A DNA stretch of 64,000 nucleotides from Gaiellaceae bacterium (GCA_035601195.1 DATNOU010000095.1:3002-67001); one strand, 5' to 3'; positions 7,380-42,447 are shown, counted from the stretch's first letter. Translations and numbers: made by a program. Notes: generated by a model from the sequence alone, not told the origin.

Positions 7380-8267
7380 ATGTTACCTTCGCTCTCCCAG
7401 GTGCCCGGAGAACTGACCATCAAGGCGATCCAGGCGCAGCCGGAATGGCTGCGCGGCGTTCCAGAGCGCGTCGGGGACCGGCGCTTACCGGACGGACGCG
7501 TCGTCTTCACGGGCTGTGGCACCTCGTTTCACGCTGCGCAGACAGGCGGCGAAGCGCTCCAAGCGCTCGAGGCCGTGCTGCGTCCCCCCGAGGCGGACCT
7601 CCTCGTCTGTGTCAGCCACGAGGGTGAGACCCCCCTGACGCTCGAGGCCGCCCAGGCGTTTGGCGGGCCGGTTTGGCTCGTCACCGGCAAACCCGGCGGC
7701 CCCATCGCAGACGTCTCCGAGGAGGTGATCGTGGTCACGCCTGAGGTGGAGGAGAGCTATTGCCATACGGGTTCCTACACCTGTGCCGTCGCGGCGCTCG
7801 ACGCCCTCCACGGCGCGGACGTCCGCTGGCTGCGGCTCGCAGTCGAGCACGCGCTCGCTGATCCGTTCGAAGGAGGCGACTGGGAGCGCGTCGCGGTAGT
7901 CGGCGCGGCTCGCGACTGGCCGACGGCGCAGGAGGCCGTTCTGAAGCTCCGCGAAGGGGCTCACATCCCGGCCGAGGCCCACCAGACCGAGCAGATCCTC
8001 CACGGCCACCTGGCGGCGATCGACGAGCGCGTCCGCGTCTTCGTCCTCGAGGGGGAGGGGCGAGCGGCTGAGCGGGCCGCAGACGTCGTGCGTGCGCTGG
8101 GTGAGATCGGCGCCGACACCACCCTCGTGCCGACGGCTCATCCGGTGGTGGACATCGTCCGCTTCCAGCTCCTGACCGTCGACCTCGCGGAGCGGCGAGG
8201 CGTGAACCCCGACAAGATCCGCCGGGACGACCCGCGCTGGGACGCGGCCCGCCGGTCGTACGGCTAG
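7380..8267 (+). CDS. SIS (sugar isomerase) domain protein
   Basis: 295 aa. VVFTGCGTSFHAA and VCVSHEGETP match the SIS phosphosugar-binding motifs. Confidence 0.6.
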   Translation: MLPSLSQVPGELTIKAIQAQPEWLRGVPERVGDRRLPDGRVVFTGCGTSFHAAQTGGEALQALEAVLRPPEADLLVCVSHEGETPLTLEAAQAFGGPVWLVTGKPGGPIADVSEEVIVVTPEVEESYCHTGSYTCAVAALDALHGADVRWLRLAVEHALADPFEGGDWERVAVVGAARDWPTAQEAVLKLREGAHIPAEAHQTEQILHGHLAAIDERVRVFVLEGEGRAAERAADVVRALGEIGADTTLVPTAHPVVDIVRFQLLTVDLAERRGVNPDKIRRDDPRWDAARRSYG

Positions 8268-8539
8268 CGAACCAGCAGGCCGCCGTTGATCGATGCGCCG
8301 CGCAGGAACGCGAGCCAGTCGTCCCAGAGTTTCCGGTCGGCGAGCGCGATCGGATCCTCCGCTGCGGCCTCGAGGGCGGCGTCGACCTCTGTCGCGGTGA
8401 CATGGACGCCCGGCTCGAGGCGGGGAAGCATCACGCCCTGGAGCACCATTTCCTGCCGAAGCAGCTCGACGTCGGCGGGGTCGAGGAAGACATGGCCGGT
8501 CATGCCGTCGTTCCGCGCCCAGTAGAGGCGGATGCTCAC
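8264..8539 (-). CDS. Hypothetical protein
   Basis: 91 aa. The GTG start overlaps the upstream stop (GTGA). GC3-rich codon usage and its position as the last gene of a coupled minus-strand operon support it. No motif was recognised. Confidence 0.5.
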   Translation of the reverse strand: MSIRLYWARNDGMTGHVFLDPADVELLRQEMVLQGVMLPRLEPGVHVTATEVDAALEAAAEDPIALADRKLWDDWLAFLRGASINGGLLVR

Positions 8540-9702
8540 GCGAGGTCTCGTAGGGCTGCGAGCACGCGATCGACCTCGTCGTGGGTGTTGTAGTGGACGA
8601 AACCGATGCGAAGCGTTCCGTCGGGCAGGCCGAGCCGTTCCATCACCTCGACGGCGTAATAGTTCCCGGGCCAGGTGGCGATGTCGCGCTCGGCCAGGCG
8701 GGCCGCGAGCTCTTCCGGGGACCTGTCGGGATGCGTGAGGGCAAACGTCGGGACGCGCCCCTCCATCGAGGGAAGGCCGTAGAAGCGGTATGGCGAAGGC
8801 AGCCCGTCGAGGAAACGCTGCCCGAGCTCGCTCTCATGCGCCTGGATCGCGTCCCAGCCGAGCGACTCCAGGTACTCGACCGCCGCCGTGAAACCGGCGA
8901 GCGACTCGTGCGACAGCGTGCCCGTCTCGAACCGGTGCGCCACAGGCTCGTCGGCGCTCGGCCGCACTTTGTAGGGCCGCCAGCGATCGACCACCTCACG
9001 GCGGGCGAAGAAGAGGCCGAGGTGCGGGCCGAAGAACTTGTACGGCGAGCAGATGAGGATGTCGGCGCCGACCGCCCCCGCGTCGATCGGCCCGTGGGGT
9101 GCGTAGTGGACGGCGTCGACCCACGCCAGCGCGCCGGCGTCGTGCGCTAGCTCCGCGATCCTCCGAACCGGGCTGATCGAGCCGACCGCATTCGATGCCC
9201 AGGGGAACGCAACGACTCGCGTCCGGGGGGACAGCTGGCGCTGGAGGTCGTCGACGTCGACGGTGCAGTCCTCTTCGTTCAGATCTGCGGAGCGGACGAC
9301 GAGGTCGAGGTCGCGGGCCAACTCGAGCCAGGGCGCGACGTTCCCGTCGTGGTCCAGGCGGGTGACGACGATCTCGTCGCCGGCTTCCAGTTCGCGGCCC
9401 AGGGTGCGCGTGAGCGCGAAGTTGAGGGTCGTCATGTTCTGGCCGAAGCCCACCTCCTCGGGTGAGGCGGCAAGGAAGCGGGCGGCGGCCTCGTGCGCGC
9501 CCTCGACCAGCGCGTCGGCACGGCGACTCGTCTCGAAGGGACCCCCGAGGTTCGCGTTGGCCTCCCGGAGGCAGCTCGCCATCGCTTCGATGACGGAGTC
9601 GGGAACCTGTGTTCCGCCTGGGCCGTCGAGGAACGCGGTCGGGGAATCCAGGGCGGAGAAGCGAGCGCGGACAGCCGCGACGTCGAGCGCGACCGTACTC
9701 AT
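8536..9702 (-). CDS. Class V aminotransferase / cysteine desulfurase-like PLP enzyme
   Basis: Sequence is typical of the cysteine desulfurase-like family (LDGPGGTQVP, ILICSPYKFFGPH, THDEVDRVLAAL). The Met at 9702 overlaps the OsmC stop (ATGA); an alternative upstream Met lies at 9729. Confidence 0.8.
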   Translation of the reverse strand: MSTVALDVAAVRARFSALDSPTAFLDGPGGTQVPDSVIEAMASCLREANANLGGPFETSRRADALVEGAHEAAARFLAASPEEVGFGQNMTTLNFALTRTLGRELEAGDEIVVTRLDHDGNVAPWLELARDLDLVVRSADLNEEDCTVDVDDLQRQLSPRTRVVAFPWASNAVGSISPVRRIAELAHDAGALAWVDAVHYAPHGPIDAGAVGADILICSPYKFFGPHLGLFFARREVVDRWRPYKVRPSADEPVAHRFETGTLSHESLAGFTAAVEYLESLGWDAIQAHESELGQRFLDGLPSPYRFYGLPSMEGRVPTFALTHPDRSPEELAARLAERDIATWPGNYYAVEVMERLGLPDGTLRIGFVHYNTHDEVDRVLAALRDLA

Positions 9703-24063: not shown

Positions 24064-24095
24064 GGGGTCCGGGATCGGGGTCAGACCCCGGTGTC
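24064..24095. repeat. REP-like copy flanking the 3' end of the RAYT gene
   Basis: ggggtccgggatcGGGGTCAGACCCCggtgtc lies 17 nt from the RAYT stop. Confidence 0.7.
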
Positions 24096-24111
24096 GAAAG
24101 AAGACATGGCC

Positions 24112-24663
24112 CTACTCGACCCTCGCTTCATCCACGAATCGGCCGAATGCCTGGCGCGCTCGGTCTTCATCCGCCCCGAAGAAGGCCAGAACCCTGTCTG
24201 CCGTGTGAAGTGACGAGCGAGGGCCTCGAATCACGTCGCAGAAGCTGCTCCAGCGCCATTCCGCAGGCGATACGCAAAGACCAGCACGGACAGGATTCAT
24301 AGCGATGTAACGCGTGAGCTCCAGGAGGTGCCAGTCGCTTTCGACGAGGACGGCGTGGAACCGGCCTTGAAAGACATGCCCGACGAACCCATAGTCGCGA
24401 TTGAACCACTGCGCGTACTCGCCGTTGATGGTCTGCATGCCTGCGGAGAGGTCGGCCTCAGGGGTCTCGAGCAAGAGGTGGTAGTGGTTCTGCATCAGGC
24501 AGTAGCTATGGATCAACCACCGCCGGCGAGCCGTGACCTTCGTGACGAGTTCTAAGAAGAGGATTCGATCCCCGTCAGAAAGGAAGATCGGTTCCTTCCG
24601 GTTGCCGCGACAGGTGACGTGATAGATCCCGCCGGCGATCAGCCTGCGTCGAGAACGGGCCAT
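24112..24663 (-). mobile_element. REP-associated tyrosine transposase (RAYT; IS200/IS605 Y1 transposase-like)
   Basis: The Met at 24663 (MARSRRRLIAGGIYHVTCRGN...) begins the protein. The HUH motif is NHYHLLLE and the catalytic Tyr context is LTRYIAMNPVRAGL. REP-like hairpins flank the gene on both sides. Confidence 0.8.
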
Positions 24664-24740
24664 GAAATCGAAGGTAGCGCTAGGCAATAGTCCGCCGATC
24701 CTCGACCGCGGTCCCGTTTCACTTGAGTGCGCCTTTTTCA

Positions 24741-24766
24741 ACAGGCGGGGTCAGACCCCGCTGTCC
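24741..24766. repeat. REP-like copy flanking the 5' side of the RAYT gene
   Basis: acaggcGGGGTCAGACCCCgctgtcc lies 78 nt upstream of the RAYT start and 3 nt from the stop of the next gene. Confidence 0.7.
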
Positions 24767-32843: not shown

Positions 32844-34145
32844 CTAGTAAACGAGGCTTTCGGTAACCGCCCGCTGCTGGCGGACGGCCTTCTTCATGTA
32901 ATCGTAGGCCTCTTCCTTCCGACCCTCGGCCTCCGCCAGGTCGGCGAGCTTGGAGTAGACCTCGATGAGGAAGCGGTTCGGGTTGCGAGGCTCGAGCAGC
33001 TCGGCGGCGAGCTCGTAGACCTCGCGGGCGCGAGAGCTCTCACCGAGCTCTTCGTAGACGTTGCCGAGAACCGTGTAGCTCCGCGCGGCGTCTTCGGGAG
33101 CCGCGTCGGAGATGAGCCCGGAAACTTGCATGGCGAGCGCAGCCGCCTCTTCGCTCCGTTCGAGCATGGCGAGGGCTCTCGCCTCCTCGAGCCTGTACTG
33201 AGCCCGCTCGAGCTTGTTCCCGCTCCGCTCGAGGAGAGGCCAGCCCCGCTCGAGCAGAACCAGCGCCTCGTCGGCGTTGCCACGGTCGAGCTCGATGTGG
33301 GCGAGCAGCTGGTGGCCGCGAGCCGTCCGGTACGTGTCCTCGGTCAGCAGGAGGATCTCGAGCGCCCGGCGAGCATAGTCGGCCGCCGTGTCCTGATCGC
33401 TGCGCTCGGCGTGGAGGCGCGACTGCGACCAGTAAAGCCTCGCGCGGACGAGCGGATCCTGGGATTTGTCCCCCAGCGCCAGGGCTCGGCCGAGGAGCTC
33501 CTCCGCCCGCCCGAGGTTCCCGCTGTCGATCAGCGCGGAGGCGAGGAGTACCGCGAACCGCATCGTCTCGATGTCGTCCTCGCGCGCATCCGCCTCGTCG
33601 AGGGCGGCCTGGAAGACGCCGATCGCGGACTCGAGCTCACCAACCATGGCGTACGCCCGCCCCAGGGCTTCGGCGACAGCGGCCCGCATCATCCGGTCGG
33701 TCATCCCGCGGGCCCGCTCGAGGAACTTGATTGCCTCGCGCGGATTGCCCCGGCGGGAGGCGAGCTGTCCGAGGCCGGCGTGCGCCTCCGCCTTCTCCGC
33801 ATCTGTCACCGCCGAGACCAGAATCTGTTCGAACAGCTCTTCCGCGGCGTCCAGCTCATCGAGTCTGAGGGCGACCTCGGCCTGGGCGAGCTCGGCGCCG
33901 CGGACCCCGCGGTCCGCCGCGCCTGTCGCGAGATAGTCCTCGGACACGCCCAGGCGTTTTCCGAGCTCGCGCAGGAGCTGAAGGGAGGGGATCCGGTCGC
34001 CCGATTCGATGCGCGAGATGTAGGCCGGGGAGCAGCCCGAAAAGGAAAGCTGGCGCTGGCTGAGGCCGGCCCGTTCGCGCGCGTCCTTCAACCGCTCGCC
34101 GACGGCGGCGGCACTGTCGACATGAGTTGACTTTTGTCGTGGCAT
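32844..34145 (-). CDS. HTH-XRE / TPR transcriptional regulator (intact paralog of 19095..20437)
   Basis: The XRE HTH is ERAGLSQRQLSFSGCSPAYISRIESGDRIPS, followed by about 350 aa of TPR-like helices. ATG 34145 gives the same N-terminal spacing as the paralog; an upstream TTG lies at 34175. Confidence 0.8.
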   Translation of the reverse strand: MPRQKSTHVDSAAAVGERLKDARERAGLSQRQLSFSGCSPAYISRIESGDRIPSLQLLRELGKRLGVSEDYLATGAADRGVRGAELAQAEVALRLDELDAAEELFEQILVSAVTDAEKAEAHAGLGQLASRRGNPREAIKFLERARGMTDRMMRAAVAEALGRAYAMVGELESAIGVFQAALDEADAREDDIETMRFAVLLASALIDSGNLGRAEELLGRALALGDKSQDPLVRARLYWSQSRLHAERSDQDTAADYARRALEILLLTEDTYRTARGHQLLAHIELDRGNADEALVLLERGWPLLERSGNKLERAQYRLEEARALAMLERSEEAAALAMQVSGLISDAAPEDAARSYTVLGNVYEELGESSRAREVYELAAELLEPRNPNRFLIEVYSKLADLAEAEGRKEEAYDYMKKAVRQQRAVTESLVY

Positions 34146-34167
34146 CCGAAACCTGTTATAAAGTCGA

Positions 34168-34197
34168 GCTGTCAATCCTGGGCCCAGGAGCTGTCAA
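34168..34197. promoter_or_regulatory. Candidate operator: GCTGTCAA-TCCTGGGCCCAGGA-GCTGTCAA
   Basis: A perfect 14-bp palindrome is flanked by two identical 8-mers. It lies between the divergent HTH-TPR gene and the small ORF at 34217. Confidence 0.35.
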
Positions 34198-34216
34198 CGT
34201 CGGAAAGGACGGCTCC

Positions 34217-34294
34217 ATGAGACTCAAGCTGGCGTTCGTTTGCGCTGCGCTTGGGACTGTTGCGGCCTTTGTGGCCGGCACTCCCTGGTGGTAG
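34217..34294 (+). CDS. Candidate small hydrophobic peptide (25 aa), divergent from the HTH-TPR regulator
   Basis: The ATG is preceded by AAGGA. The product is MRLKLAFVCAALGTVAAFVAGTPWW. A strong intrinsic-terminator-like hairpin follows 30 nt downstream. No homology evidence is available. Confidence 0.4.
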   Translation: MRLKLAFVCAALGTVAAFVAGTPWW

Positions 34295-34324
34295 CAGCTC
34301 GTCGGTGTCATTGATTCGTTGGGG

Positions 34325-34363
34325 GTGGCGGGCCGGGTGGCCCGCCACTCTCTTTCTCTGTTT
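34325..34363 (+). terminator. Intrinsic terminator-like hairpin (GTGGCGGGCC-gggt-GGCCCGCCAC) followed by a T-rich tract
   Basis: A perfect 10-bp GC stem with a 4-nt loop is followed by tctctttctctgttt. The T-rich tail occurs only on the + strand. Confidence 0.6.
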
Positions 34364-34606
34364 ACGTCCATTTTGCCTTTTGGCGTGAACCCTCGATCGG
34401 GGTACTGGTTCGAAGCGCCGCGCATTCTGACCACTTTCTGACCCGTAACGCAAGAGCGAAGTCGTTTCGGCTCCAGAAAGAGGAAGGGAGCCCGCCTGCG
34501 GTGGCGGACTCCCCTGGAGCGTCAACGGCAATGACAATTGTCGTCGAAACGGTGTTGACGAGCATCCCCCAGACGGGGGCTGTCGAGCCGAATAGGCTCC
34601 AGTGCC

Positions 34607-35251
34607 ATGGATTGGGACGCCCACGCGGAGCGCGAGGAGGGCCGCTACAGCGACGGGCTGGCCCGTTTGCCTGAGGATCTCGACGGGAGGCAGAAGCAGC
34701 TCGTACGCGTGGCCATGGCCGCCGGAGGAGCGGGGCTTGCCCGTCTCATGCAGGGTCGGTCGGCCGAAGCAGCCGGCTGGCTCTCACGTTCCGCCGAGCG
34801 CTATCGCCAGAGCTGGGACGGCGCCCCGGCCGGCAGCTGGGGGCGCCTCATCGGGGCGGTCAAGTCGCGCATCCTGGCCGGGGACTGGGAGGGAGCCGTC
34901 CAGGACGCCCGCTGGGCCCTCGAGCAGCGCCCACAGGAATCGGACTCGCCGATCGGCGCCTACGCGGCCGTGCTGGCATTGCTGACGCTCGCCGAGGACG
35001 AGCAAGCGGCCGCACTCGCGCCGGCCCTTCGCCACGAGGCGTTTCCCGAGGCCGTGGGCGACGCGCTCGCGTCCTTGTCCGCGCACGACCGCGACGCCTA
35101 TGCGACTTCGGTCGCGCGAGTGCTCGAGTCCTTCGAGATCCGCGGGGACTACCTGGAGGACATCCCTGTCGCAGACACGGTGCTCGTGCTCGAGGCCCTG
35201 GCCGCGCGCCGTAGCTTGGCCGCCGGCCTCAAATCGGCACTTCTGCCTTAG
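34607..35251 (+). CDS. Hypothetical protein
   Basis: 214 aa ORF with GC3-rich usage. No motif was recognised. Confidence 0.5.
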   Translation: MDWDAHAEREEGRYSDGLARLPEDLDGRQKQLVRVAMAAGGAGLARLMQGRSAEAAGWLSRSAERYRQSWDGAPAGSWGRLIGAVKSRILAGDWEGAVQDARWALEQRPQESDSPIGAYAAVLALLTLAEDEQAAALAPALRHEAFPEAVGDALASLSAHDRDAYATSVARVLESFEIRGDYLEDIPVADTVLVLEALAARRSLAAGLKSALLP

Positions 35252-35258
35252 AGGACGT

Positions 35259-36413
35259 CTAGAGCTCTTCGACGTCGACGGAGACGATCGTGTCCGGCTT
35301 GAGGAACCGGCCGTTCACGAAGGGCCAGTCGTCGCTGTCCGTCGACCCGAGTTGCTTGGTCAGTGCCTTGGCGTAGCCTTTCGCCTCGCCGATGTCCTCG
35401 CACTCGGCCACGGTCATGCGCTCACCCAATGTGAGCCGGATGGAAACGCGATAGGCCGCCGCGGGTGCGGCGGCCGGAGGGGGAGTGTCGTCCTCGAAAT
35501 CTTCGTGCATCTGCCCGTTCGACTGCGGGAGGCTCTGCGGCACGAACGGCTCCGTGGCGAGCGGCGCCAACTCGGGCTCGGGCTCCGGCTCGGGAGCAGG
35601 CGCCGGCGCCTCGAACGCGGGCGCCTCGAACGCGGGCGCCTCGAACGCGGGCGCTGGCAGCTCAGGCGCTGCCTCCATAACAGGCTCGGGCAGAGCTTCG
35701 GGCTCCGGCTCGCGCTCGAACGCGGGCTCCGGCTCGGGCACAGACTCAGACTCAGCAGGCGCGTCGAAGCTGTACTCCGAGGCGTCGAAGTGCGGCGCCG
35801 CTTCCTGCTCGGGCGCAGCTTCGATTGTCCGGTCGGCCTCGAACGCCGGCTCCGGCCCGGCTTCGAACTCGGCGGCCGGGAGCTCAGGCTCGGCGGCAGG
35901 AACACTCGTGTCGACCCGCGGCGGCTGAGGCTCAGGCTCAGGGGCCGCGGCGGCAGCCTCGTAGGTGCCGCCGAAGATCTCGCCGATAACGTCGTTCAGC
36001 TCGCTGCGCGCGACCACGATGAACCGAGCTTCCTGTCCGAGCGCCTCGCGGATGTTGCGGTTCAGGACGTCGTTCGTCGGGTCGGCAACGGCGACGATCG
36101 GAGTCCCTTCCTCGAACCCGATCGGCAGCGCCGTGAACAGGCGTGCCTGGTCTTCGGACAGCAGGCGGGCCGCGTCGGGCTCGATGCCCCGCTCGCGCAG
36201 GCTGACGAAGGGTAGGCCCTTCTGCCCGGCGAGAAGCCGCGTCAGGTCCTCTTCCTTGATCAGGTTGCGCTCGACGAGGATCTCGCCGAGCCGGCGTCCG
36301 GTCTTGACGCCCTCCTCGAGGGCGTTCTCGATCGTCTCCGCGGGCAGGAGTCCTGCCCTGAAGATCAGGGTTCCAAGGGGTGCGTCGGGACGCTCTCTCA
36401 ACGGGGTGCTCAT
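35259..36413 (-). CDS. MshEN / T2SSE_N domain protein with Pro/Glu/Ala-rich repeat linker
   Basis: The N-terminus carries two tandem copies of the RLGxx(L/V)(L/V)xxGL(I/L)xxxxLxxxL-type motif (LGTLIFRAGLLPAETIENAL and RLGEILVERNLIKEEDLTRLLAGQ), followed by a GspE_N-like region. No ATPase domain is present. Confidence 0.65.
   Translation of the reverse strand: MSTPLRERPDAPLGTLIFRAGLLPAETIENALEEGVKTGRRLGEILVERNLIKEEDLTRLLAGQKGLPFVSLRERGIEPDAARLLSEDQARLFTALPIGFEEGTPIVAVADPTNDVLNRNIREALGQEARFIVVARSELNDVIGEIFGGTYEAAAAAPEPEPQPPRVDTSVPAAEPELPAAEFEAGPEPAFEADRTIEAAPEQEAAPHFDASEYSFDAPAESESVPEPEPAFEREPEPEALPEPVMEAAPELPAPAFEAPAFEAPAFEAPAPAPEPEPEPELAPLATEPFVPQSLPQSNGQMHEDFEDDTPPPAAAPAAAYRVSIRLTLGERMTVAECEDIGEAKGYAKALTKQLGSTDSDDWPFVNGRFLKPDTIVSVDVEEL
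35606..35650. repeat. Perfect 15-bp tandem repeat x3 (gcgcctcgaacgcgg) inside the CDS
   Basis: Three identical adjacent copies encode APAFE x3 on the minus strand. Confidence 0.9.
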
Positions 36414-36575
36414 ATGCCGCAGATCTCAGTTGCCGCAGTGCTCGGGCGGGTTTTTCGCCCTGTCTTCGACTATCGGTGAGGGAACGGTGGGAGGTATCAC
36501 CCTTTCGAGGGGTTGCTCACCGTTCAGCCCGGATTCTCACTAAGATTTCGCCGCGACGAAAAATAGGTTTCGCCA

Positions 36576-37913
36576 ATGAACAAGGCCAGACAGGCAACCA
36601 GCGACAGATGGACGACTGACGGACGCCGGGCGACGGTCGAGGTCGGGGACGTCCTTCCCGGCGAGGCGGCGACCCTCCGGGCGGCTCACGAGACACTGCG
36701 CGGCGAGCGCCGGGGCCTCCGCGGGCTCTGGCCCTTCCTCGGGCCCGCGTTCGTCGCCGCAGTTGCGTACATCGATCCGGGCAACTTCGCCACGAACATC
36801 GCAGGCGGCGCGAAGTACGGGTACCTGCTCCTCTGGGTGGTGCTCTCGGCCAACCTCATGGCGATGCTCGTGCAGACCCTGTCGGCCAAGCTCGGGATCG
36901 CCACAGGCAAGAACCTGCCCGAAACCTGCCGCGACCATTTCCCCAAGCCAGTGTCCATTGTCCTCTGGCTCCAGGCGGAGGGGATCGCGATGGCAACAGA
37001 TCTCGCCGAAGTGATCGGCGCTGCGCTGGGCCTCCACCTCCTCTTCGGAATGCCTCTCTTCCTCGCGGGCCTGCTGGCCGGCGCAGGGGCGTTCGGGATC
37101 CTTGCGCTCCAGCGCTACGGATTCCGCCGGCTCGAGGCCGCAGTCGCCTCCCTTGTCGGCGTCATCGTCGTGTCGTTTGCGCTCGAAGTGCTTATCGCGA
37201 AACCGGACGGCAAGGAAGTCGCGAAGCATCTTGTCCTTCCCAGGTTCGAGGGGACGGAGTCCGTGCTGCTCGCCGTCGGAATCCTCGGCGCCACGGTCAT
37301 GCCGCACGTCGTCTATCTGCACTCCGCCCTGACGCAGAACCGCATCGAAGGCCGTGACGAGGAGGAAAAAAAGAAGATCCAGCGGTTCGAGCGAATCGAC
37401 GTGATCATCGCGATGACGATCGCCGGGCTCGTGAACATCTCGATGCTGGCGATCGCGGCGGCTGTGTTCTTTGGCATCGGCATCGAGTCGATCGAGGATG
37501 CCTACGCGAACTTCGAGCTCGAGCTGGGCTCCGGGGCGGCCATCCTCTTCGGAATCGCGCTGCTCGCCTCAGGCTTCTCCTCTTCGTCCGTCGGGACGAT
37601 GGCCGGGCAAGTGGTCATGCAGGGCTTCATCAACCGCCGGATCCCGCTGTTTCTGCGGCGCGCGATCACGCTTACCCCGGCGCTCGTGATTCTCGGCATC
37701 GGGGTCGATCCGAGCCGCTCGCTCGTCATCAGTCAGGTCGTCCTCTCCTTTGGGATCCCGTTCGCGCTCGTCCCGCTGGTGATCTTCACGAGCCGGCGCA
37801 ATTTGATGGGGTCGCTCGTGAACACGCGCCTGACCACGGGCGCAGCGTGCGGGGTCGCGACGCTCATCATCCTCCTGAACCTCTTTCTCCTCTACGAGAC
37901 CTTCGTCGGCTAG
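36576..37913 (+). CDS. mntH: Nramp family divalent metal (Mn2+/Fe2+) transporter
   Basis: 445 aa polytopic protein. The hallmark motifs are AYIDPGNFATNI and GATVMPHVVYLHS. Confidence 0.9.
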   Translation: MNKARQATSDRWTTDGRRATVEVGDVLPGEAATLRAAHETLRGERRGLRGLWPFLGPAFVAAVAYIDPGNFATNIAGGAKYGYLLLWVVLSANLMAMLVQTLSAKLGIATGKNLPETCRDHFPKPVSIVLWLQAEGIAMATDLAEVIGAALGLHLLFGMPLFLAGLLAGAGAFGILALQRYGFRRLEAAVASLVGVIVVSFALEVLIAKPDGKEVAKHLVLPRFEGTESVLLAVGILGATVMPHVVYLHSALTQNRIEGRDEEEKKKIQRFERIDVIIAMTIAGLVNISMLAIAAAVFFGIGIESIEDAYANFELELGSGAAILFGIALLASGFSSSSVGTMAGQVVMQGFINRRIPLFLRRAITLTPALVILGIGVDPSRSLVISQVVLSFGIPFALVPLVIFTSRRNLMGSLVNTRLTTGAACGVATLIILLNLFLLYETFVG

Positions 37914-37960
37914 CGCTCGGGGATAGCGTTCACCTCGACCGGCCTAGCAAAGGGGAGACG

Positions 37961-38746
37961 ATGAGAGACGACCTTGTAGTCGGGAACGAGTTCCCCGACA
38001 TCAGCCTGCCCGAGCACACGGGCAAGGAGCTTTCGCTTGAGGTGATCGCGCCACAGCAGCCGCTCGTACTCGCGTTCGTGCGCGGTTGGTGGTGCCCGAA
38101 GGAGCAGATCCGGCTCAGGAAGCTCGTCGACGCCCAGGACGAGCTCCAGCGGGAGTACGGGCGCATCGCCGCGGTGACCGTCGACGAGCCCTACGTCAAC
38201 GGAGCTTTTCGCGCCGGCATCGGCGCCGACTTCCCGTTTCTCTCGGACGAGGAGCGGCGGATCGCCGGTGAGCTCGATCTGCTGGAGCTGACGGACGAGC
38301 TGCACCGGCCGTTTCTCCCGTATACGTTCGTCCTGGACTCCAACCGCATCATCCGCAACATCTGGTGCGGATTCTGGTACTGGGGTAACCCGACGATCGA
38401 AGAGCTCCGGCTCGCTCTCCGCGAGATCACTCGCGCGGAACAGCCAACTTACGACCCGCAGCGTGTCTGGGCTGCGGGTGGCGCCGCCCCGGCGGACGCC
38501 GGGATCGAAGGCGAGGTCGTCTGGATCCGGGAGAACAGCCAGGGGCAGGAGCTCTGGCGGGGAGTGCACGAGGGTGAGGTGCCGGAGGTCGGCGACGAGC
38601 TCGGCCGCTCGATGGTGGACGGCCGTCCCTGGGTCGTGCGGGCAATCGAGCGCAAGGACGGCCGGGTGGGCATCCACCTCAGCAAGGAAGGGAAGAGCAG
38701 CGCCGATCCCCACGAGGTCGGCCACCACATCACCGTGCCGCGCTAG
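37961..38746 (+). CDS. Thioredoxin-fold (AhpC/TSA/redoxin-like) protein with C-terminal extension
   Basis: ATG 37961 is preceded by AAAGGGGAG. LVLAFVRGWWCPKEQ resembles the peroxiredoxin-like Cys context. Confidence 0.55.
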   Translation: MRDDLVVGNEFPDISLPEHTGKELSLEVIAPQQPLVLAFVRGWWCPKEQIRLRKLVDAQDELQREYGRIAAVTVDEPYVNGAFRAGIGADFPFLSDEERRIAGELDLLELTDELHRPFLPYTFVLDSNRIIRNIWCGFWYWGNPTIEELRLALREITRAEQPTYDPQRVWAAGGAAPADAGIEGEVVWIRENSQGQELWRGVHEGEVPEVGDELGRSMVDGRPWVVRAIERKDGRVGIHLSKEGKSSADPHEVGHHITVPR

Positions 38747-38820
38747 TCGCTTTTGGACCTGCCCGGGGTCTGACCCCGGGCAGGTCCGATATGGACACCG
38801 GGGTCTGACCCCGGTGTCCC
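38716..38820 (+). repeat. Direct repeat copy A (~105 bp): last ~30 nt of the CDS + REP doublet
   Basis: Near-identical to 41104..41206, with 2 substitutions and a 2-nt indel by eye. It contains hairpins GGACCTGCCCGGGG-tctga-CCCCGGGCAGGTCC (38755-38787) and GGACACCGGGG-tctga-CCCCGGTGTCC (38793-38819). Confidence 0.85.
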
Positions 38821-38836
38821 GACTCGGCTGACGCCG

Positions 38837-40051
38837 TCAGGCGACCAGAAGGCCCGTGGCGTACATCACGGCGATCCCGGTCAGGAAACCGCCGATGACG
38901 TACCCGGAGGCAAGACCGCCCGGCGCTCGGCGAGCGACGAAGCGACCGACCTCGACGATGACCTCGAAGGCGGCGCCTGCACCCGCGGCGAAGAAGAGCA
39001 CACCGAGGAAGTCGTCGGTGAGGAACCCGCCGACCCACGCGCCGACGATTGCGGGCCCGCCCGCTACGAGCGCGAGCAGCGCGAGCCGGCCGATGCTTGC
39101 TTTCTTCTCCTCGGCCGCTGGAGCGGCGATTCCGAGCCCCTCGGTGATGTTGTGGACCATGAAGCCGACGACCAGGAAGGTTCCCAAAGTGAGCTCCCCC
39201 AGTGCGAAGGACGAGCCGATCGCAAGCCCTTCGCCGAGGTTGTGAAGCCCGATCCCGACTGCGACGAGCGTCGCAAGTGCGAGGCCCCCGAGCTCGGTGT
39301 TGCGGCGCGCCCCTCCTCCTGCGCCAAGCCGCTGGGCGAGGAACGTGAGGGCAAGGTAGCTGGTCGCCACGCCGATCAGGACGAGACCAGGACCGCCTAG
39401 GGCTCCAGGGAGTGCCGCCTGGCGCTGGAGTGCCTCGGCGAGCGCCTCGAGGGCAAGGAAGGCGAGCAGGCCCCCCGTTAGGGCCATGAAAGCGGCCAGC
39501 CACTGCGGAGCCGCGCGCCGGAGGGACGGCAGCCACAGGAGCCCGAGCGCCACCGGAACGATGCCGACGAGGAAGCCGACGAGTGCGTAACCGAAGAAGC
39601 CCTTCGGCGAGGCGCTGGGCGTCTCGACCGCGGCTGCGATCTCCTCCGTCGTCTCGATTCCGGTCGAGCTCGTCACACCGACCGCGATGGGATCCTCCTC
39701 GACCCAGTCGAAGGGGATGACGATCGTCGCGGAGCGAAGCCGCTCGAGCCGCTGCGGGCCATCGACCGAGAAGGGAACGATCGCGTCGTCGACCGAGACC
39801 AAGGCGATCGTAAGGTCGTCACGCTGAGGGTTCGTGACTCGGATCCTGATCTCGCCGGGCTGGAACTCGACCCGGCGGATCTTGAACTCGTCGACCGGCG
39901 GCGGGTTGCGCCCGAGCAGCCCCAGAACGGAATCGCCGGCGGCTGCGAAGACCGAGACTGCACCGACGAGCAGAAGGATCGGAACCAACGCCCAGAGGCG
40001 CCAGCCGAGATCGCCCGCCCTACGCTTCTCCGCCGCCGAGCTCGACTCCAT
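38837..40051 (-). CDS. ZIP family metal transporter with N-terminal extracytoplasmic domain
   Basis: 404 aa. The ZIP signatures are GIGLHNLGEGLAIG and FMVHNITEGLG. The start overlaps the stop of the multicopper oxidase gene (ATGA at 40051). Confidence 0.75.
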   Translation of the reverse strand: MESSSAAEKRRAGDLGWRLWALVPILLLVGAVSVFAAAGDSVLGLLGRNPPPVDEFKIRRVEFQPGEIRIRVTNPQRDDLTIALVSVDDAIVPFSVDGPQRLERLRSATIVIPFDWVEEDPIAVGVTSSTGIETTEEIAAAVETPSASPKGFFGYALVGFLVGIVPVALGLLWLPSLRRAAPQWLAAFMALTGGLLAFLALEALAEALQRQAALPGALGGPGLVLIGVATSYLALTFLAQRLGAGGGARRNTELGGLALATLVAVGIGLHNLGEGLAIGSSFALGELTLGTFLVVGFMVHNITEGLGIAAPAAEEKKASIGRLALLALVAGGPAIVGAWVGGFLTDDFLGVLFFAAGAGAAFEVIVEVGRFVARRAPGGLASGYVIGGFLTGIAVMYATGLLVA

Positions 40052-41052
40052 CAGTCGACGACGTCGAAGAAGCCCATCCAGCCCAGCTCCGCGAACTCGG
40101 ATTGGTGTGCGTGAAACATGAACTTCCCGGTGTTTGAGAAGTCGATCTCGAGGATGCAGCGCTCGCCCTGGCAGAGCATGACGGTGTCCGTGTACTCGAA
40201 CTGCTCGGTCGAGCCGGTGCGGTAAAGCCGGAAGAACTCGCCGTGCAGGTGCAAAGAGTTGATGAGGTCGAACTCCGTCAGGTTGGCGAGGTAGATCCGC
40301 ACGGTCTGCGAGCGGCTGACCCTGATCGGATACTTCGCGTAGTAGAACGTGAGCCCGTTGACGGTGTAGAAGTTGTTGTTCCCGTCACCGTCGGTGTCGT
40401 AGCCGTTCATCACCATGACGAGCTCCTGGGCGGGCGGGCGAGGCTTTTGGGGATCGACGATGAAGGCGCCGTAGAGGCCCTTGTGAATGTGCTTCTTGAG
40501 CGGTGTCGCGTGGCAGTGGTAAAGGTGCATCCCGTAGGGGCGAGCGGGAAACTCGTACGCGAAGCTTTCGTCCGGCTCGACCACTTCGAAGACGCCGTCC
40601 ATGTTTGCCGGGTGAATCCCGTGAAAATGGATCGTGTGCGGGTGCGAGCCGGCGTTCACCAAGTGGACGCGCAGAAGGTCGTCCTCGGTCGCCCGGATGA
40701 TCGGCCCCGGAACGGTGCCGTTGTACGTCCACGCGTTGAACGTCACTCCCTTGGCGACCTCGATCTGCTTGTCGGATGCGACAAGGGTGTATTCGCGCAC
40801 GCGGCCCGGCTCGTGCGGCAAGGCCTGTGCCGGGAAAAGAAGTTCGTCGAGGTCGTGGGGTCCACCCGGCGCTGGCGCGGCGTCGCCAATCATCGCGGCA
40901 TGCCCGCTGGCGGCATGCTCATGCCCGAGATGCGTCGCCTCCCGGTTGCTGGCCAGGAGGGGTGAGGACGCGAGGCTGCACAGGGGCCCAACCGTCACGA
41001 TCGGCGCGGCTCCGGCTAGGAGCCGACGGCGAGTGAATTTTGAATTAGACAC
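40051..41052 (-). CDS. Multicopper oxidase (two-domain, small-laccase/NirK-like) with Tat signal
   Basis: The GTG start is followed by the twin-arginine motif TRRRLLAG. The copper ligand motifs are HTIHFHG, LYHCHATP...H and FMFHAHQSEF. Confidence 0.8.
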   Translation of the reverse strand: MSNSKFTRRRLLAGAAPIVTVGPLCSLASSPLLASNREATHLGHEHAASGHAAMIGDAAPAPGGPHDLDELLFPAQALPHEPGRVREYTLVASDKQIEVAKGVTFNAWTYNGTVPGPIIRATEDDLLRVHLVNAGSHPHTIHFHGIHPANMDGVFEVVEPDESFAYEFPARPYGMHLYHCHATPLKKHIHKGLYGAFIVDPQKPRPPAQELVMVMNGYDTDGDGNNNFYTVNGLTFYYAKYPIRVSRSQTVRIYLANLTEFDLINSLHLHGEFFRLYRTGSTEQFEYTDTVMLCQGERCILEIDFSNTGKFMFHAHQSEFAELGWMGFFDVVD

Positions 41053-41103
41053 ATCTAAATCCTAGTTTCGCTGGTGCGAGACAGCAAGTCGTTGCCCGCA
41101 GGC

Positions 41104-41206
41104 GGTCGGCCACCACATCATCGCCGCGCTAGTCGCTTTCGGACCTGCCCGGGGTCTGACCCCGGGCAGGTCCGATATGGACACCGGGGTCTGACCCCGG
41201 TGTCCC
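41104..41206 (+). repeat. Direct repeat copy B (~103 bp): remnant of the 3' end of gene 37961..38746 + REP doublet
   Basis: ggtcggccaccacatcatcgccgcgctagtcgctttc + the same two hairpins (41141-41173 and 41179-41205) as copy A. Confidence 0.85.
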
Positions 41207-41208
41207 TT

Positions 41209-42447
41209 TTAGCCGGCGAGCTTCTCGATCGTCTTCGACGCGAGGCGGTCGAGTGCCTGGACGGCAAGCTCGAGGTGCTCCGGCTTCGTGTCCTCGAGCT
41301 TCGTGTGCGAGAGGCCGCGGAGGCTCTGGACGAAGAGCATGACCGTGGGGACGCCCGCGCGGGAAACCTCGGCCGCATCGTGTAGAGGGCCGCTCGGAAG
41401 GCGGTGCGACTGCCCGGCGACCTCGTTGACGGCCTCGTCGGCCAACGCGATTAGCTCCTCGTCGAAGAGGATCGGCTCGATCGCCCAGACCCGCTCCCAT
41501 TCGACGTCGACGTCCTCCTCGTTTGCGAACCGCCGGCTCGCGTCGTTTGCCTCGGCGAGCATGGAAGCGAGCTTCCCGGCGTCCAGATGGCGTTGGTCGA
41601 GGAGCACAGTGCAGGTCTCGACCACCGAGGTGACGATGCCGGGCTTCGTGACGCAGCTTCCCACCGTGCAGACCGCTCCATCGCCCGTTCGTTTGGCGAT
41701 CTCGCGGATCTCGAGCGCGAGTTTGGCAGCGCCGCCGAGGGCGTCTCGTCGCTTGTCCATCGGGGTCGAGCCGGCGTGGGCCGCCTGGCCGCGGAACGTG
41801 ATCTGGTGGCGTTCCACGCCGAACGTGCCCAGCACGACACCCAGCGGGAGGTCGAGTGCCTCCAGCACCGGGCCTTGTTCGATGTGGAGCTCGAGATAGG
41901 CGGCCGCGCCGTGGAGGCGGCTGCGCGCCTCGAGCGCGCGGTCGAGGTCGACGCCATGCGCAGCGAGCACCTCGGGAAGCGCCTGGCCGCCTGCGTCCCG
42001 GCGCGAACGCAGCTCGTCCTGGTCGACCATGGAGCCCGCGGCTGCGCTCGACCCGAAGAGGCTCCGGCCGAAACGAGCGCCCTCCTCGTCGGCCCAGTTG
42101 ACCAGGCGTACGGTGACGGGCGGCTCCCCCTCCTCCGCGATTCGTCGCAGGACCTCTGCGCCGGCGACGACGTTGAGCGCGCCGTCGAGCCAGCCGCCGT
42201 TGGGCACGGAGTCGATGTGGCCGCCGATGAGGAGAGCGCGTTCGGAGCTCCCGCGGGCCGTGAACCACTGGTTGCCCGCTTGGTCGATCTCCTCTTCGGC
42301 CGCCAGGGGCTCGAGCTTGGACGCCAGCCATTTCTTGGCCTCGACCCACGTGTCCGTCCAGGCAACGCGCTGTGCGCCCTCCTCGTTGCCCGTCAGCTCT
42401 CGGAGCTCGCGTAGCTCTGCCACCGTGCGGCCTGGGTCAAGCGCCAC
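41209..42447 (-). CDS. M20 family amidase (allantoate amidohydrolase / N-carbamoyl-L-amino-acid hydrolase type)
   Basis: Typical motifs are LIGGHIDSVPNGGWLDGALNV, NWADEEGARFG and FRGQAAHAG. GTG 42447 gives about 412 aa; a longer ORF runs to 42591. Confidence 0.8.
   Translation of the reverse strand: MALDPGRTVAELRELRELTGNEEGAQRVAWTDTWVEAKKWLASKLEPLAAEEEIDQAGNQWFTARGSSERALLIGGHIDSVPNGGWLDGALNVVAGAEVLRRIAEEGEPPVTVRLVNWADEEGARFGRSLFGSSAAAGSMVDQDELRSRRDAGGQALPEVLAAHGVDLDRALEARSRLHGAAAYLELHIEQGPVLEALDLPLGVVLGTFGVERHQITFRGQAAHAGSTPMDKRRDALGGAAKLALEIREIAKRTGDGAVCTVGSCVTKPGIVTSVVETCTVLLDQRHLDAGKLASMLAEANDASRRFANEEDVDVEWERVWAIEPILFDEELIALADEAVNEVAGQSHRLPSGPLHDAAEVSRAGVPTVMLFVQSLRGLSHTKLEDTKPEHLELAVQALDRLASKTIEKLAG

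What the first reader, a model, noticed from the sequence alone, without database searches (positions are those of the whole stretch)
38716..41206. 2.3-kb multicopper oxidase + ZIP transporter cassette bracketed by ~105-bp direct repeats that include a gene 3' end and a REP doublet
Seen in sequence:
- 38716-38820 and 41104-41206 are near-identical direct repeats, with 2 substitutions and one 2-nt indel by eye.
- Each contains ggtcggccaccacatca.cg..ccgcgctag. In copy A this is the last ~10 codons plus the stop of gene 37961..38746. In copy B it is non-coding.
- Each then carries two tandem hairpins, with 14-bp and 11-bp stems around GGGG-tctga-CCCC.
- Between the repeats lie only the translationally coupled Tat-dependent multicopper oxidase and ZIP-type transporter genes, with their own AT-richer upstream patch (41053-41103).
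Inference: the cassette looks inserted between two convergent genes. One route is Campbell-type single crossover of a circular intermediate carrying the ~105-bp homology. Another is REP-mediated recombination. Recombination between the repeats would excise it precisely, which makes this a candidate for REP-associated gene mobility.
Basis: partly seen in the sequence, partly recalled or inferred. Interest (0 to 1): 0.65.

Follow-up and report, generated by a model that had tools for sequence, protein, structure and literature searches.

The report
Recombination scar around a metal-uptake cassette
The two 105-base repeats around a copper-oxidase/metal-transporter gene pair in a soil actinobacterium are what is left of a duplicated neighbouring gene end plus its REP hairpins, made when two alternative versions of this locus were joined head to tail; they are not the ends of a free-moving element.

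Summary
Copy A (38716-38820) and copy B (41104-41206) differ by 2 substitutions and one 2-nt indel. Each holds the last 31 nt of the redoxin gene plus two strong hairpins.

The hairpins are true REPs. There are 8 cores in the window, and a cognate REP-associated tyrosine transposase (RAYT, 24112-24741) is flanked by them.

About 120 related Gaiellaceae loci show three alleles:
- **E (empty):** Nramp-Redox-M20.
- **U/D:** ZIP-MCO sits upstream of Redox.
- **W (window type):** Nramp-Redox-R-ZIP-MCO-stump-R-M20.

The cassette is native. It has diverged in step with its flanks, has the same codon usage, and always lies in this neighbourhood. The window's left half carries the old E-allele deletion scar. 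The cassette's right edge is U-allele intergenic DNA fused to the redoxin tail. So copy B is the stump of a second redoxin copy: the locus is an E+U allele fusion followed by an ~815-bp deletion.

The copies evolve in concert (gene conversion). No excised form was seen among near-identical strains. The one novel join lies at a C|T one base past REP hairpin 2, which is the known RAYT cut motif. That is suggestive but unproven.

Verdict: an ordinary kind of event, unusually well documented.

The parts
36414..36541 (.). 'int': the MshEN-side intergenic region shared by E and U alleles. Homology with the U allele (L056) ends at ...GGATTCTCACT (36541).
   Evidence: blastn breakpoints; junction read-out
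36542..36575 (.). E-allele scar upstream of Nramp. It is a remnant of the MCO-start/MCO-Nramp intergenic region, left by an old deletion of ZIP and nearly all of MCO.
   Evidence: Shared by all E-type loci, including ones at 75-80% identity. Aligns with the D-type MCO-start/intergenic region.
36576..37913 (+). Nramp (MntH-type) metal transporter gene. It belongs to the E-allele half.
   Evidence: Pfam PF01566, E 7e-124; absent from U-type L056/L012/L120
37961..38746 (+). Redoxin gene (AhpC/TSA domain plus a C-terminal extension), the intact copy.
   Evidence: Pfam PF00578; orthologues at 66-100% identity in about 110 loci
38716..38820 (+). Repeat copy A. It holds the redoxin tail (38716-38746), REP hairpin 1 (38753-38789) and REP hairpin 2 (38793-38819), plus 1 C.
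38820..38821 (.). Novel illegitimate junction, R|cassette (...GGTGTCCC|GACTCGG...). The break lies at the C|T that follows hairpin 2 in the ancestral context (...GGTGTCCC|TTTTAG).
   Evidence: No detectable homology between the joined partners. The C|T cleavage rule for RAYTs is from PMC3333891.
38837..40051 (-). ZIP-like metal permease: an N-terminal TM helix and extracytoplasmic domain, then a ZIP core at residues ~124-394.
   Evidence: BbZIP 5tsa E 4e-6; ZupT NCBIfam 5e-8; Pfam Zip is below its cut-off
40051..41052 (-). Two-domain multicopper oxidase with a twin-arginine signal. Its stop codon overlaps the ZIP start by 1 nt.
   Evidence: PF07732 and PF07731; PDB 3gdc E 2e-98 and 7rab 5e-93
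41045..41058 (.). Operator-like palindrome TTAGAC-NN-(G/A)TCTAA overlapping the MCO start codon.
   Evidence: One mismatch in the window. A perfect copy occurs exactly once, at the MCO start, in 23 cassette-bearing loci.
41053..41103 (.). U-allele MCO-upstream (MCO-Redox divergent) intergenic DNA, truncated at ...GCAGGC.
   Evidence: Collinear with L056 up to its position 7935. Homologous in L120 and L070.
41103..41104 (.). Deletion junction GCAGGC|GGTCGGCC. About 62 bp of redoxin leader and about 755 bp of redoxin body are missing relative to the U allele.
   Evidence: The same junction is in L047, so it was a single event.
41104..41206 (+). Repeat copy B. It holds the decaying 29-nt stump of a second redoxin copy (41104-41132), REP hairpin 1 (41139-41175) and REP hairpin 2 (41179-41205), plus 1 C. 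It sits in its original right-hand context (TTTTAG, the M20 stop).
41209..42423 (-). M20-family amidohydrolase (hydantoinase/carbamoylase type), convergent with the redoxin gene in empty-site relatives.
24077..24759 (-). REPtron: the RAYT gene (24112..24741) flanked on both sides by REP cores of the same family (24077-24089 and 24747-24759).
   Evidence: PF01797, 46.4 bits against GA 23. NCBIfam NF047646 'REP-associated tyrosine transposase', 83.1 bits against cut-off 80. PDB 4er8 TnpA_REP, E 1.5e-5. Sequence.

Best explanation
The locus is a chimera of two long-standing alternative alleles of one Gaiellaceae chromosomal neighbourhood.

**The alleles**
- The ancestral order was MshEN - ZIP - MCO - Nramp - Redox - M20 (D type).
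- The E allele lost ZIP and MCO, giving MshEN-[scar]-Nramp-Redox-R-M20.
- The U allele lost Nramp, giving MshEN-ZIP-MCO-Redox-R-M20.
- R is the redoxin tail plus a REP hairpin doublet that acts as a bidirectional terminator.

**The event**
- In the ancestor of the window's lineage, U-allele DNA (ZIP-MCO-intergenic-Redox-R) was joined behind the R of an E allele.
- The right-hand join was homologous, within Redox-R-M20.
- The left-hand join was illegitimate. It falls exactly at the C|T one base past the foot of REP hairpin 2.
- This gave Nramp-Redox-R-ZIP-MCO-Redox-R-M20, with two direct redoxin copies.
- An ~815-bp deletion then removed the leader and body of the second redoxin copy. That left a 31-nt stump plus R, which is copy B.

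**What followed**
- The two 105-nt repeats are therefore a duplication scar.
- They have since exchanged sequence by gene conversion.
- In principle they can recombine to delete the cassette and restore an E allele.

**What it does now**
- The event reunites the Nramp module and the MCO/ZIP module in a new gene order.
- The MCO/ZIP module is probably a metal oxidase-permease uptake pair with its own operator-like palindrome.
- Each R copy serves as a terminator between convergent or tandem transcription units.

**Shown:** the allele types, the breakpoints, the stump, concerted evolution, the native origin of the cassette, and the REP/RAYT identity.

**Inferred:** the order of events, the two-redoxin intermediate, the cause of the left-hand break, and the physiological role.
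For: 1. **Three arrangements, with clean breakpoints.**
   - W 34000-36541 matches L056 3153-5655.
   - W 37958-38819 matches L056 7998-8857.
   - W 38821-41103 matches L056 5652-7935.
   - W 41096 onward matches L056 8748 onward.
   - For the empty site, W 34000-38779 and W 41184 onward match L050 contiguously.
2. **Copy B's left edge is a deletion junction.** The 51 bp upstream of MCO are collinear with the U-type MCO-Redox intergenic region, then jump to the last 31 nt of Redox. L047 has the same junction with an intact 31-nt tail. In the window the stump has two substitutions and a 2-nt deletion, which is pseudogene decay.
3. **The window's MshEN|Nramp junction is the E-allele scar.** Every E-type locus shares it, down to 75-80% identity.
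4. **The cassette is native.**
   - W-L056 DNA identity is ZIP 94.1% and MCO 90.5%, against Redox 90.8% and M20 93.8%.
   - The ZIP tree mirrors the flank trees.
   - GC3 is 0.835-0.847, against 0.838-0.92 in neighbouring genes.
   - The cassette lies in the same neighbourhood in every locus.
5. **Both alleles recur at several distances.** E: L050, L117-119, L121, L053, L013, L014 and others. U: L056/L012, L120, L070.
6. **Concerted evolution.** Three derived hairpin-1 states are present in both W_A and W_B but not in L047_A/B, L056 or L050. L046 copy A also carries the copy-B flank TTTTAGC.
7. **Each copy keeps one original flank.** A is contiguous with Redox, and B with the TTTTAG-M20 stop.
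8. **REP identity.** There are 8 cores against 0.16 expected. The family occurs at non-homologous intergenic sites in relatives. The RAYT is flanked by REPs.
Against: - No intermediate with two full redoxin copies was found among about 120 loci.
- Sliding-window identity of the flanks shows no donor/recipient mosaic. The fusion is therefore inferred from the scars only.
- The left join shows no homology or microhomology beyond chance, so its mechanism is open.
- A tandem duplication in a U-type genome, followed by allelic replacement of the first cassette copy by E-type DNA, would give the same end product.
- All sequences are metagenome or MAG assemblies.
- Rare excision or circular forms could not be tested, because only k=31 Logan contigs were available and they break inside the 70-nt identical stretch.
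Confidence: 0.72

Rival explanations
1. Intragenomic tandem duplication with loss. A U- or D-type ancestor duplicated the block ZIP-MCO-(Nramp)-Redox-R in tandem, with the join point at the foot of REP hairpin 2. The first cassette copy and the second redoxin (and Nramp) copy were then lost.
For: - Gene orientation is preserved and adjacent blocks are swapped.
- REPs are known join points of tandem duplications (Shyamala et al. 1990, PMC551756, cited in PMC7661048).
- The A and B copies are nearly identical.
Against: - The window's MshEN|Nramp junction is base-for-base the old E-allele scar, shared with loci at 75-80% identity. Loss of the first cassette copy would have to recreate that scar, or be achieved by allelic replacement with E-type DNA. 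The second option again makes the locus an E+U chimera.
- No D-type close relative was seen in the tight cluster.
Confidence: 0.13
2. Campbell-type integration. A circular molecule carrying the cassette plus about 105 bp of homology integrated by a single crossover at the redoxin tail/REP doublet, and can excise the same way.
For: - Direct repeats bracket the cassette and empty sites exist.
- The repeats interact.
- A circle excised from a U-type genome and carrying the whole Redox-R would give the inferred two-redoxin intermediate.
Against: - A circle with only the 105-nt homology presupposes the W arrangement already exists.
- Copy B's left end is a deletion junction inside U-type intergenic DNA, not the edge of a recombination site.
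- There is no recombinase in or beside the cassette.
- No excised form was seen in 15 near-identical contigs, and depth is equal across the cassette.
- The cassette is never seen elsewhere.
Confidence: 0.07
3. RAYT/Y1-transposase mobilisation. The segment between REP hairpins in direct orientation behaves like an IS200/IS605-type 'peel and paste' unit, moved in trans by the RAYT at 24112-24741.
For: - A cognate RAYT is in the window.
- The hairpins at both ends are in the same orientation.
- The novel junction is at a C|T just 3' of a REP. This is the cleavage motif of E. coli TnpA_REP (PMC3333891).
Against: - Y1 transposition makes no target duplication, whereas here 31 nt of a gene tail are duplicated.
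- The cassette-side end of the junction (T|GACT in the U allele) is not a C|T and has no REP.
- The second boundary is a plain deletion inside a gene.
- The cassette is never found at another site.
- RAYTs are regarded as domesticated and are not known to move genes (PMC8266576).
Confidence: 0.05
4. Assembly artefact. The 105-nt repeat caused a chimeric contig.
For: Some contigs end inside the repeat (L009, L010). Logan k=31 contigs also break there.
Against: - The arrangement is identical in independent assemblies from different samples and assemblers, including k=141, which is longer than the repeat.
- A 93%-identical variant, L047, has the same junctions but its own substitutions.
- Depth is even across the junctions.
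Confidence: 0.01

Closest known systems
Homology-facilitated illegitimate recombination and 'displacement' arrays (V. cholerae T6SS effector-immunity arrays; Rhs C-terminal displacement), PMC5361080, PMC3240628
   Same: - An incoming allelic module is anchored by homology on one side and joined illegitimately on the other.
- The resident module is kept rather than replaced.
- Orphaned 3' gene remnants are left between the modules.
- Alternative alleles circulate among close relatives.
   Different: - Here the modules are housekeeping metal-handling genes, not toxin/immunity pairs.
- The remnant is only 31 nt and includes a REP terminator doublet.
- The illegitimate join sits at a REP foot.
- The process is inferred from comparative data only.
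REP sequences at join points of tandem chromosomal duplications in Salmonella (Shyamala, Schneider & Ames 1990, PMC551756; seen in the reference list of PMC7661048)
   Same: A REP hairpin lies exactly at the novel junction of a duplicative rearrangement.
   Different: - In Salmonella both partners of the join were REPs.
- Here the partner sequence is not REP-like (score 6-9, against 147 of 6396 background windows scoring 10 or more).
- The duplication here is mostly erased.
REPtrons: REP families with their RAYT/TnpA_REP (PMC2817692, PMC3333891, PMC8266576)
   Same: - Short GC-rich extragenic hairpins with a conserved core, in many copies.
- A Y1 HUH transposase gene flanked by them. It meets NCBIfam NF047646, and its best solved relative is 4er8.
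- REP occupancy of a given spacer varies among strains (0, 1 or 2).
   Different: - The host is a Thermoleophilia (Gaiellaceae) actinobacterium.
- There is no GTAG guide tetranucleotide. The conserved 5' arm is GGACAYC.
- The doublet here is in direct, not inverted (BIME/REPIN), orientation.
- Cleavage specificity is unknown.
IS200/IS605-family elements
   Same: A DNA segment bounded by sub-terminal hairpins in the same orientation. A Y1 transposase that cuts near hairpin feet.
   Different: - There is no transposase inside the segment.
- A 31-nt gene tail is duplicated.
- One boundary is a deletion junction.
- There is a single genomic location.
Multicopper oxidase + ZIP permease gene pairs of ammonia-oxidising archaea, proposed to act in metal (Cu) uptake (PMC7785015)
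   Same: A directly linked MCO and ZIP-family permease. The logic is an oxidase-permease pair.
   Different: - Here the pair is bacterial, with a 2-domain MCO close to PDB 3gdc.
- The two genes are translationally coupled.
- A conserved palindrome overlaps the start codon.
- The pair is ancestrally divergent from an Nramp gene.
- Function is untested in both systems.

Membership tests
REP (repetitive extragenic palindromic) element family | Short GC-rich imperfect palindrome that folds into a stable hairpin | tested here: met
   Stems of 17 and 12 bp, dG -66 to -69 kcal/mol for the doublet, z -8 to -10
REP (repetitive extragenic palindromic) element family | Many dispersed copies, all extragenic | tested here: met
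   - There are 8 cores at 5 intergenic sites in 64 kb, against 0.16 expected.
- About 20 more occur at non-homologous intergenic sites in relatives.
- A whole-genome count was not possible.
REP (repetitive extragenic palindromic) element family | Cognate RAYT (Y1 transposase) gene flanked by REPs of the family | tested here: met
   The ORF 24112..24741 hits PF01797 (46.4 bits, GA 23), NF047646 (83.1 bits, cut-off 80) and 4er8. REP cores lie at 24077 and 24747.
REP (repetitive extragenic palindromic) element family | BIME/REPIN organisation (paired REPs in inverted orientation) | tested here: not met
   Both hairpins of each doublet have the loop TCTGA on the + strand, so they are in direct orientation. 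An inverted pair was seen only in L040.
Site-specific mobile cassette (integron cassette / integrative element) | Recombinase gene in or next to the unit, and defined att/attC sites | tested here: not met
   Only the MCO and ZIP genes lie between the repeats. The neighbours are the redoxin, M20, Nramp and glyoxalase genes.
Site-specific mobile cassette (integron cassette / integrative element) | The same unit found in different genomic contexts | tested here: not met
   In every cassette-bearing locus (about 45 of about 120) the pair lies between the MshEN and Redox/M20 genes.
Transposon with target-site duplication | Terminal inverted repeats, a transposase, and a short fixed-length TSD | tested here: not met
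   There are no TIRs. The repeat is 105 nt. Its left edge in copy B is a deletion junction.
Duplication/HFIR-type recombination scar | The repeated segment is the very sequence that flanks the inserted block in the alternative allele | tested here: met
   In U alleles (L056, L012, L120, L070) the cassette is followed by intergenic DNA, Redox and R.
Duplication/HFIR-type recombination scar | One homologous and one illegitimate junction; the redundant copy decays | tested here: met
   The junction R|GACT has no homology. The stump carries a 2-nt deletion and substitutions in W, and is intact in L047.
Duplication/HFIR-type recombination scar | An intermediate with two full copies of the duplicated gene | tested here: not met
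   No locus among about 120 has two redoxin genes. Absence from the sample is not proof of absence.
Multicopper oxidase (2-domain type) | Cu-oxidase_3 and Cu-oxidase_2 domains above Pfam cut-offs, and a close solved relative | tested here: met
   91.1 and 87.9 bits against cut-offs of 21 and 20.4. PDB 3gdc, E 2e-98.
ZIP metal transporter family | ZIP domain above the curated cut-off | tested here: inconclusive
   Pfam Zip scores 19.5 bits against a cut-off of 35.1. However, BbZIP structures align over residues 124-394 at E 4e-6, and ZupT gives 5e-8.

The most novel reading that the evidence does not exclude
The left-hand join was initiated by the genome's own RAYT. A cut at the C|T one base 3' of REP hairpin 2 created the break that captured allelic DNA. 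That motif is the cleavage site known for E. coli TnpA_REP.

If so, REP/RAYT systems in these actinobacteria would act as built-in hot spots for shuffling neighbouring gene modules. The REP-containing repeats they leave behind would then allow later conversion or deletion, giving a reversible presence/absence switch for the cassette.
Probability: 0.15. Interest if true: 0.65.

Novelty: new member of a known kind. Interest (0 to 1): 0.36.

Why it matters
The locus is a compact, base-resolved natural example of how gene order changes in uncultured soil bacteria.
- Alternative alleles of one neighbourhood (module present or absent) persist across a family.
- They can be fused into a new order.
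- A short, readable scar is left: a gene-tail stump plus a terminator/REP doublet.
- That scar goes on recombining.

It also shows how not to read such scars. Direct repeats around a gene pair need not mean a mobile element.

The locus also documents a REP/RAYT ("REPtron") system in Thermoleophilia. It supplies one concrete junction, a C|T at a REP foot, on which the idea of RAYT-induced rearrangement could be tested.

The functional outcome is testable by ordinary genetics. The event reunites an Nramp importer with a multicopper-oxidase/ZIP pair that carries a conserved operator-like palindrome.

Tried and rejected
1. **[quoted passage not shown]** Rejected. Local alignment to the REP unit scores 6-9, while 147 of 6396 background windows score 10 or more.
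2. **Cut-and-paste of the cassette within one genome.** Rejected. The window holds both the E scar (a remnant of the MCO start and intergenic DNA, 36542-36575) and the full MCO start with its intergenic region, so that DNA is present twice.
3. **Foreign origin of the cassette.** Rejected on co-divergence, trees and codon usage.
4. **Searching for excised or empty forms in public runs.** Only Logan k=31 contigs were available and they break in the repeat. The listed joints have 20-30-nt sides and none links 38820 to 41207. This has no power for rare forms.
5. **Donor/recipient mosaic in the flanks.** No signal.
6. **The second REP pair at 5528/5644 as a parallel case of "REP + gene tail" duplication.** Only about 43 nt are similar. 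Beyond that the score equals shuffled sequence.
7. **Known RNA families for the hairpins.** None reaches its gathering score. The best is SorX-like, at 24 bits against 46.6.
8. **Sigma-70 promoter and U-tract terminator consensus scans.** Nothing was found at the repeats. Copy B keeps a TTTT after hairpin 2 and copy A does not.

Full report
**The observation**

Copy A is 38716-38820 and copy B is 41104-41206. They differ by two substitutions (38733, 38750) and one 2-nt deletion in B, and the last 70 nt are identical. The 17-nt gene-tail motif occurs only at these two places (0.02 expected).

In copy A it is the end of a redoxin gene, 37961..38746 (AhpC/TSA domain). In copy B it is non-coding. 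Each copy folds into two very stable hairpins of 17 and 12 bp (z about -8 to -10).

Only two genes lie between the repeats.
- One is a two-domain multicopper oxidase with a twin-arginine signal. Its closest solved relatives are 3gdc (E 2e-98) and 7rab.
- The other is a distant ZIP-family permease. BbZIP aligns at E 4e-6 over residues 124-394, though the Pfam Zip hit is below its cut-off.
- The permease start codon overlaps the oxidase stop codon by one base.

The arrangement is not an assembly artefact. It recurs in independent NCBI, ENA (k=141) and JGI assemblies, and in a 93%-identical variant with the same junctions.

**The hairpins**

The core GGGGTCWGACCCC occurs 8 times in the window at five intergenic sites, against 0.16 expected. 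It also occurs at non-homologous intergenic sites in many relatives. One lies directly behind the ZIP stop codon in L038. The redoxin-M20 spacer holds 0, 1 or 2 copies depending on the strain.

Two of the window's cores (24077, 24747) flank a 209-aa ORF. That ORF meets Pfam Y1_Tnp (46.4 bits, cut-off 23). It also meets NCBIfam's equivalog model for REP-associated tyrosine transposases (83.1 bits, cut-off 80). Its only solved relative is E. coli TnpA_REP, 4er8. The hairpins are therefore genuine REPs with their cognate RAYT, a "REPtron". No Rfam family reaches its threshold.

**Relatives**

The redoxin protein identifies the organism as a Gaiellaceae (Thermoleophilia) soil bacterium. About 120 related loci were mapped with the window's proteins. 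Four arrangements appear.

| Type | Gene order | Examples |
|---|---|---|
| W (window; at least 93% identity) | MshEN- Nramp+ Redox+ R ZIP- MCO- stump-R M20- | L001-8, L045-47 |
| E (empty site) | MshEN- Nramp+ Redox+ (R) M20- | L050 at 91-94% identity; L117-119, L121, L051-54, L013, L057, L011, L014, L025, L031, L069 |
| U | MshEN- ZIP- MCO- Redox+ R M20- | L056/L012 at 90-94%; L120; L070 |
| D | MshEN- ZIP- MCO- (Nramp+) ... Redox+ ... M20- | most distant relatives; L030 and L033 include Nramp |

**Breakpoints**

Against U-type L056 the window splits into four collinear blocks.
- 34000-36541 matches L056 3153-5655.
- 37958-38819 (Redox plus R) matches 7998-8857.
- 38821-41103 (the cassette plus 51 bp upstream of MCO) matches 5652-7935.
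- 41096 onward (redoxin tail plus R plus M20) matches 8748 onward.

Nramp (36542-37957) is absent from L056. Against E-type L050 the window is collinear from 34000 to 38779 and again from 41184 onward.

The sequence upstream of MCO (41053-41103) is the U-type MCO-Redox divergent intergenic region. It is also recognisable in L120 and L070. In L056 it runs on for 62 bp to the redoxin ATG. In the window it stops at ...GCAGGC and is joined directly to GGTCGGCC..., the last 31 nt of redoxin.

Copy B is therefore the stump of a second redoxin gene whose leader and body, about 815 bp, were deleted. L047 has the same junction with an undamaged 31-nt tail. In the window the stump has since gained two substitutions and a 2-nt deletion. 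Each copy keeps one original flank: A is contiguous with the redoxin gene, and B with TTTTAG, the M20 stop.

**The left half is an old E allele**

The MshEN|Nramp junction (...GGATTCYGWCT|AAGATTT...) is shared by every E-type locus, including ones only 75-80% identical. The 34 nt before the Nramp start align with the D-type MCO-start/intergenic region. E alleles are therefore old deletion derivatives that lost ZIP and nearly all of MCO.

The window carries that scar (36542-36575) and also a complete MCO start with its intergenic region. This has two consequences.
- It excludes a simple cut-and-paste.
- It makes an intragenomic duplication-loss route unparsimonious, because that route would have to recreate the old scar.

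**The cassette is native**

Within the tight cluster (window, L047, L050, L056) the cassette has diverged as much as its flanks. W-L056 identity is ZIP 94.1% and MCO 90.5%, against Redox 90.8%, M20 93.8% and glyoxalase 95.9%. W-L047 is about 95% throughout.

In the M20 tree this cluster is nested among E-type loci. In the ZIP tree its cassette is a long branch sister to the whole D clade. So both alleles have persisted, or been exchanged, for a long time. GC3 and codon usage of the two genes fall within the range of their neighbours.

**Best explanation**

The W arrangement is a head-to-tail fusion of an E allele (Nramp-Redox-R) with a U allele (ZIP-MCO-intergenic-Redox-R-M20).
- The right-hand join is homologous.
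- The left-hand join is illegitimate.
- The redundant redoxin copy was then deleted.
- The 105-nt repeats are what is left of the homologous Redox-R segment that both alleles contained.

This is the logic of homology-facilitated illegitimate recombination and of "displacement" arrays, which leave orphaned 3' remnants (PMC5361080; PMC3240628). A tandem duplication in a U-type genome followed by allelic replacement with E-type DNA would give the same product and cannot be excluded. Sliding-window comparisons show no donor/recipient mosaic that would decide between them. No two-redoxin intermediate was found.

**Do the repeats still recombine?**

Yes, at least without crossing over. Three derived states of hairpin 1 (one substitution and one extra base in each stem arm) are present in both copies of the window. 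They are absent from both copies of L047 and from L056 and L050. In L046, copy A has also acquired the copy-B flank TTTTAGC. That is gene conversion between sites 2.4 kb apart.

A crossover would delete the cassette and regenerate an E allele, but none was seen. All 8 informative contigs encoding the exact redoxin protein, and all 7 encoding the exact M20 protein, carry the cassette. Depth over the cassette equals the flanks, about 38-40x in runs X1 and X3. Rare excision could not be tested, because only k=31 Logan contigs were available and they break inside the repeat.

**The REP connection**

The one novel junction, 38820|38821, lies one base past the foot of REP hairpin 2. The ancestral ...GGTGTCCC|TTTTAG became ...GGTGTCCC|GACTCGG. 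The break is thus at a C|T immediately 3' of a REP. That is the motif at which E. coli TnpA_REP cleaves single-stranded REP substrates (PMC3333891; PMC8266576). REPs are also known join points of duplications (Shyamala et al. 1990, cited in PMC7661048).

Three points count against direct RAYT catalysis.
- The cassette-side partner is not REP-like.
- The cassette-side end is not a C|T.
- Few positions in this 77-nt spacer could accept an insertion without damaging a gene or a hairpin, so the coincidence is modest.

I rate a RAYT-initiated break as possible, about 0.15. I rate true RAYT-mediated mobilisation of the cassette as unlikely.

**Function**

MCO plus ZIP-permease pairs are known from ammonia-oxidising archaea and are proposed to act in metal uptake (PMC7785015). 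Here the pair carries a palindrome, TTAGAC-NN-GTCTAA, overlapping the MCO start codon. A perfect copy occurs exactly once, at that position, in 23 cassette-bearing loci, and the window's copy has one mismatch.

In D-type loci this palindrome sits in the very short divergent region shared with Nramp. The fusion therefore brings back together two metal modules that E and U alleles had separated.

In the new order, copy B separates M20 from the MCO promoter, and copy A separates the convergent ZIP and redoxin genes. A terminator role for the REP doublets is plausible but untested.

**Verdict**

It is wrong on the main point: this is a recombination scar of a native, locally rearranged module, not a mobile cassette. 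The kind of event is known. The case is unusually well resolved, and it adds a REP/RAYT system in Thermoleophilia and a testable C|T junction.

Noticed in passing
window 24077-24759: A complete 'REPtron'. The RAYT gene (24112..24741, minus strand) meets NF047646 and PF01797, has an HYH motif, and has 4er8 as its best solved relative. It is flanked on both sides by REP cores in the same orientation as the gene. It lies between a proline racemase gene and a DDAH/amidinotransferase-like gene. REP/RAYT systems in Thermoleophilia did not turn up in the paper search.
   Followed up: partly
window 41045-41058, and the MCO start in 23 loci (e.g. L030 6006-6019, L033 5996-6009, L070 4814-4827): A perfect 6-2-6 palindrome, TTAGAC-NN-GTCTAA, overlaps the MCO start codon and occurs exactly once per locus. 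A second conserved motif (TCTAAAnnnTAGTTTCG) follows it, and a related version persists upstream of Nramp in E alleles. This is probably the operator of a metal-responsive repressor shared by the MCO/ZIP and Nramp genes.
   Followed up: partly
window 5528-5575 and 5644-5691: Two REP copies lie 116 bp apart between the convergent M24 and M16 peptidase genes. They share about 43 nt (the hairpin plus about 30 nt spanning the M16 stop codon, about 77% identity). Beyond that the similarity is at shuffle level. This may be an older, smaller 'REP + gene tail' duplication, or an extended REP variant.
   Followed up: partly
Redox-M20 spacer in relatives: L050 7010-7050, L121 8785-8930, L014 ~8800-8860, L051-54, L117: REP occupancy of the same spacer varies among strains. 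Some have none, with the two stop codons abutting. L050 and L014 have one hairpin. The window and L056 have a doublet. L121 has two different REPs 100 bp apart. This is consistent with ongoing REP gain and loss.
   Followed up: partly
L046 7449-7490: In this W-type variant, copy A is followed by TTTTAGCCGGC (the M20-stop flank of copy B) instead of GACT. So a gene-conversion tract ran 7-11 nt past the repeat and ended in a CGGC microhomology.
   Followed up: yes
window 35480-35900 (inside the MshEN-domain gene 35259..36413, minus strand): A low-complexity Pro/Glu/Ala-rich repeat region (APAFEAPAFE...) is a local hot spot of divergence. Identity to close relatives drops to 70-80% there, against 92-98% around it.
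   Followed up: no
L050 ~8306-8472, versus window 42462: The empty-site relative L050 has an extra ~165 bp between the M20 and glyoxalase genes that the window, L047 and L056 lack.
   Followed up: no
window 36480-36510, and the same site in all E, U and D loci: A conserved element, GGTATCACCC-N4-6-GGG(T)G..., lies upstream of the MshEN-domain gene. In the D clade it forms a perfect hairpin (GTTATCACCC-TCAC-GGGTGATAC). It may be a leader or terminator structure.
   Followed up: no
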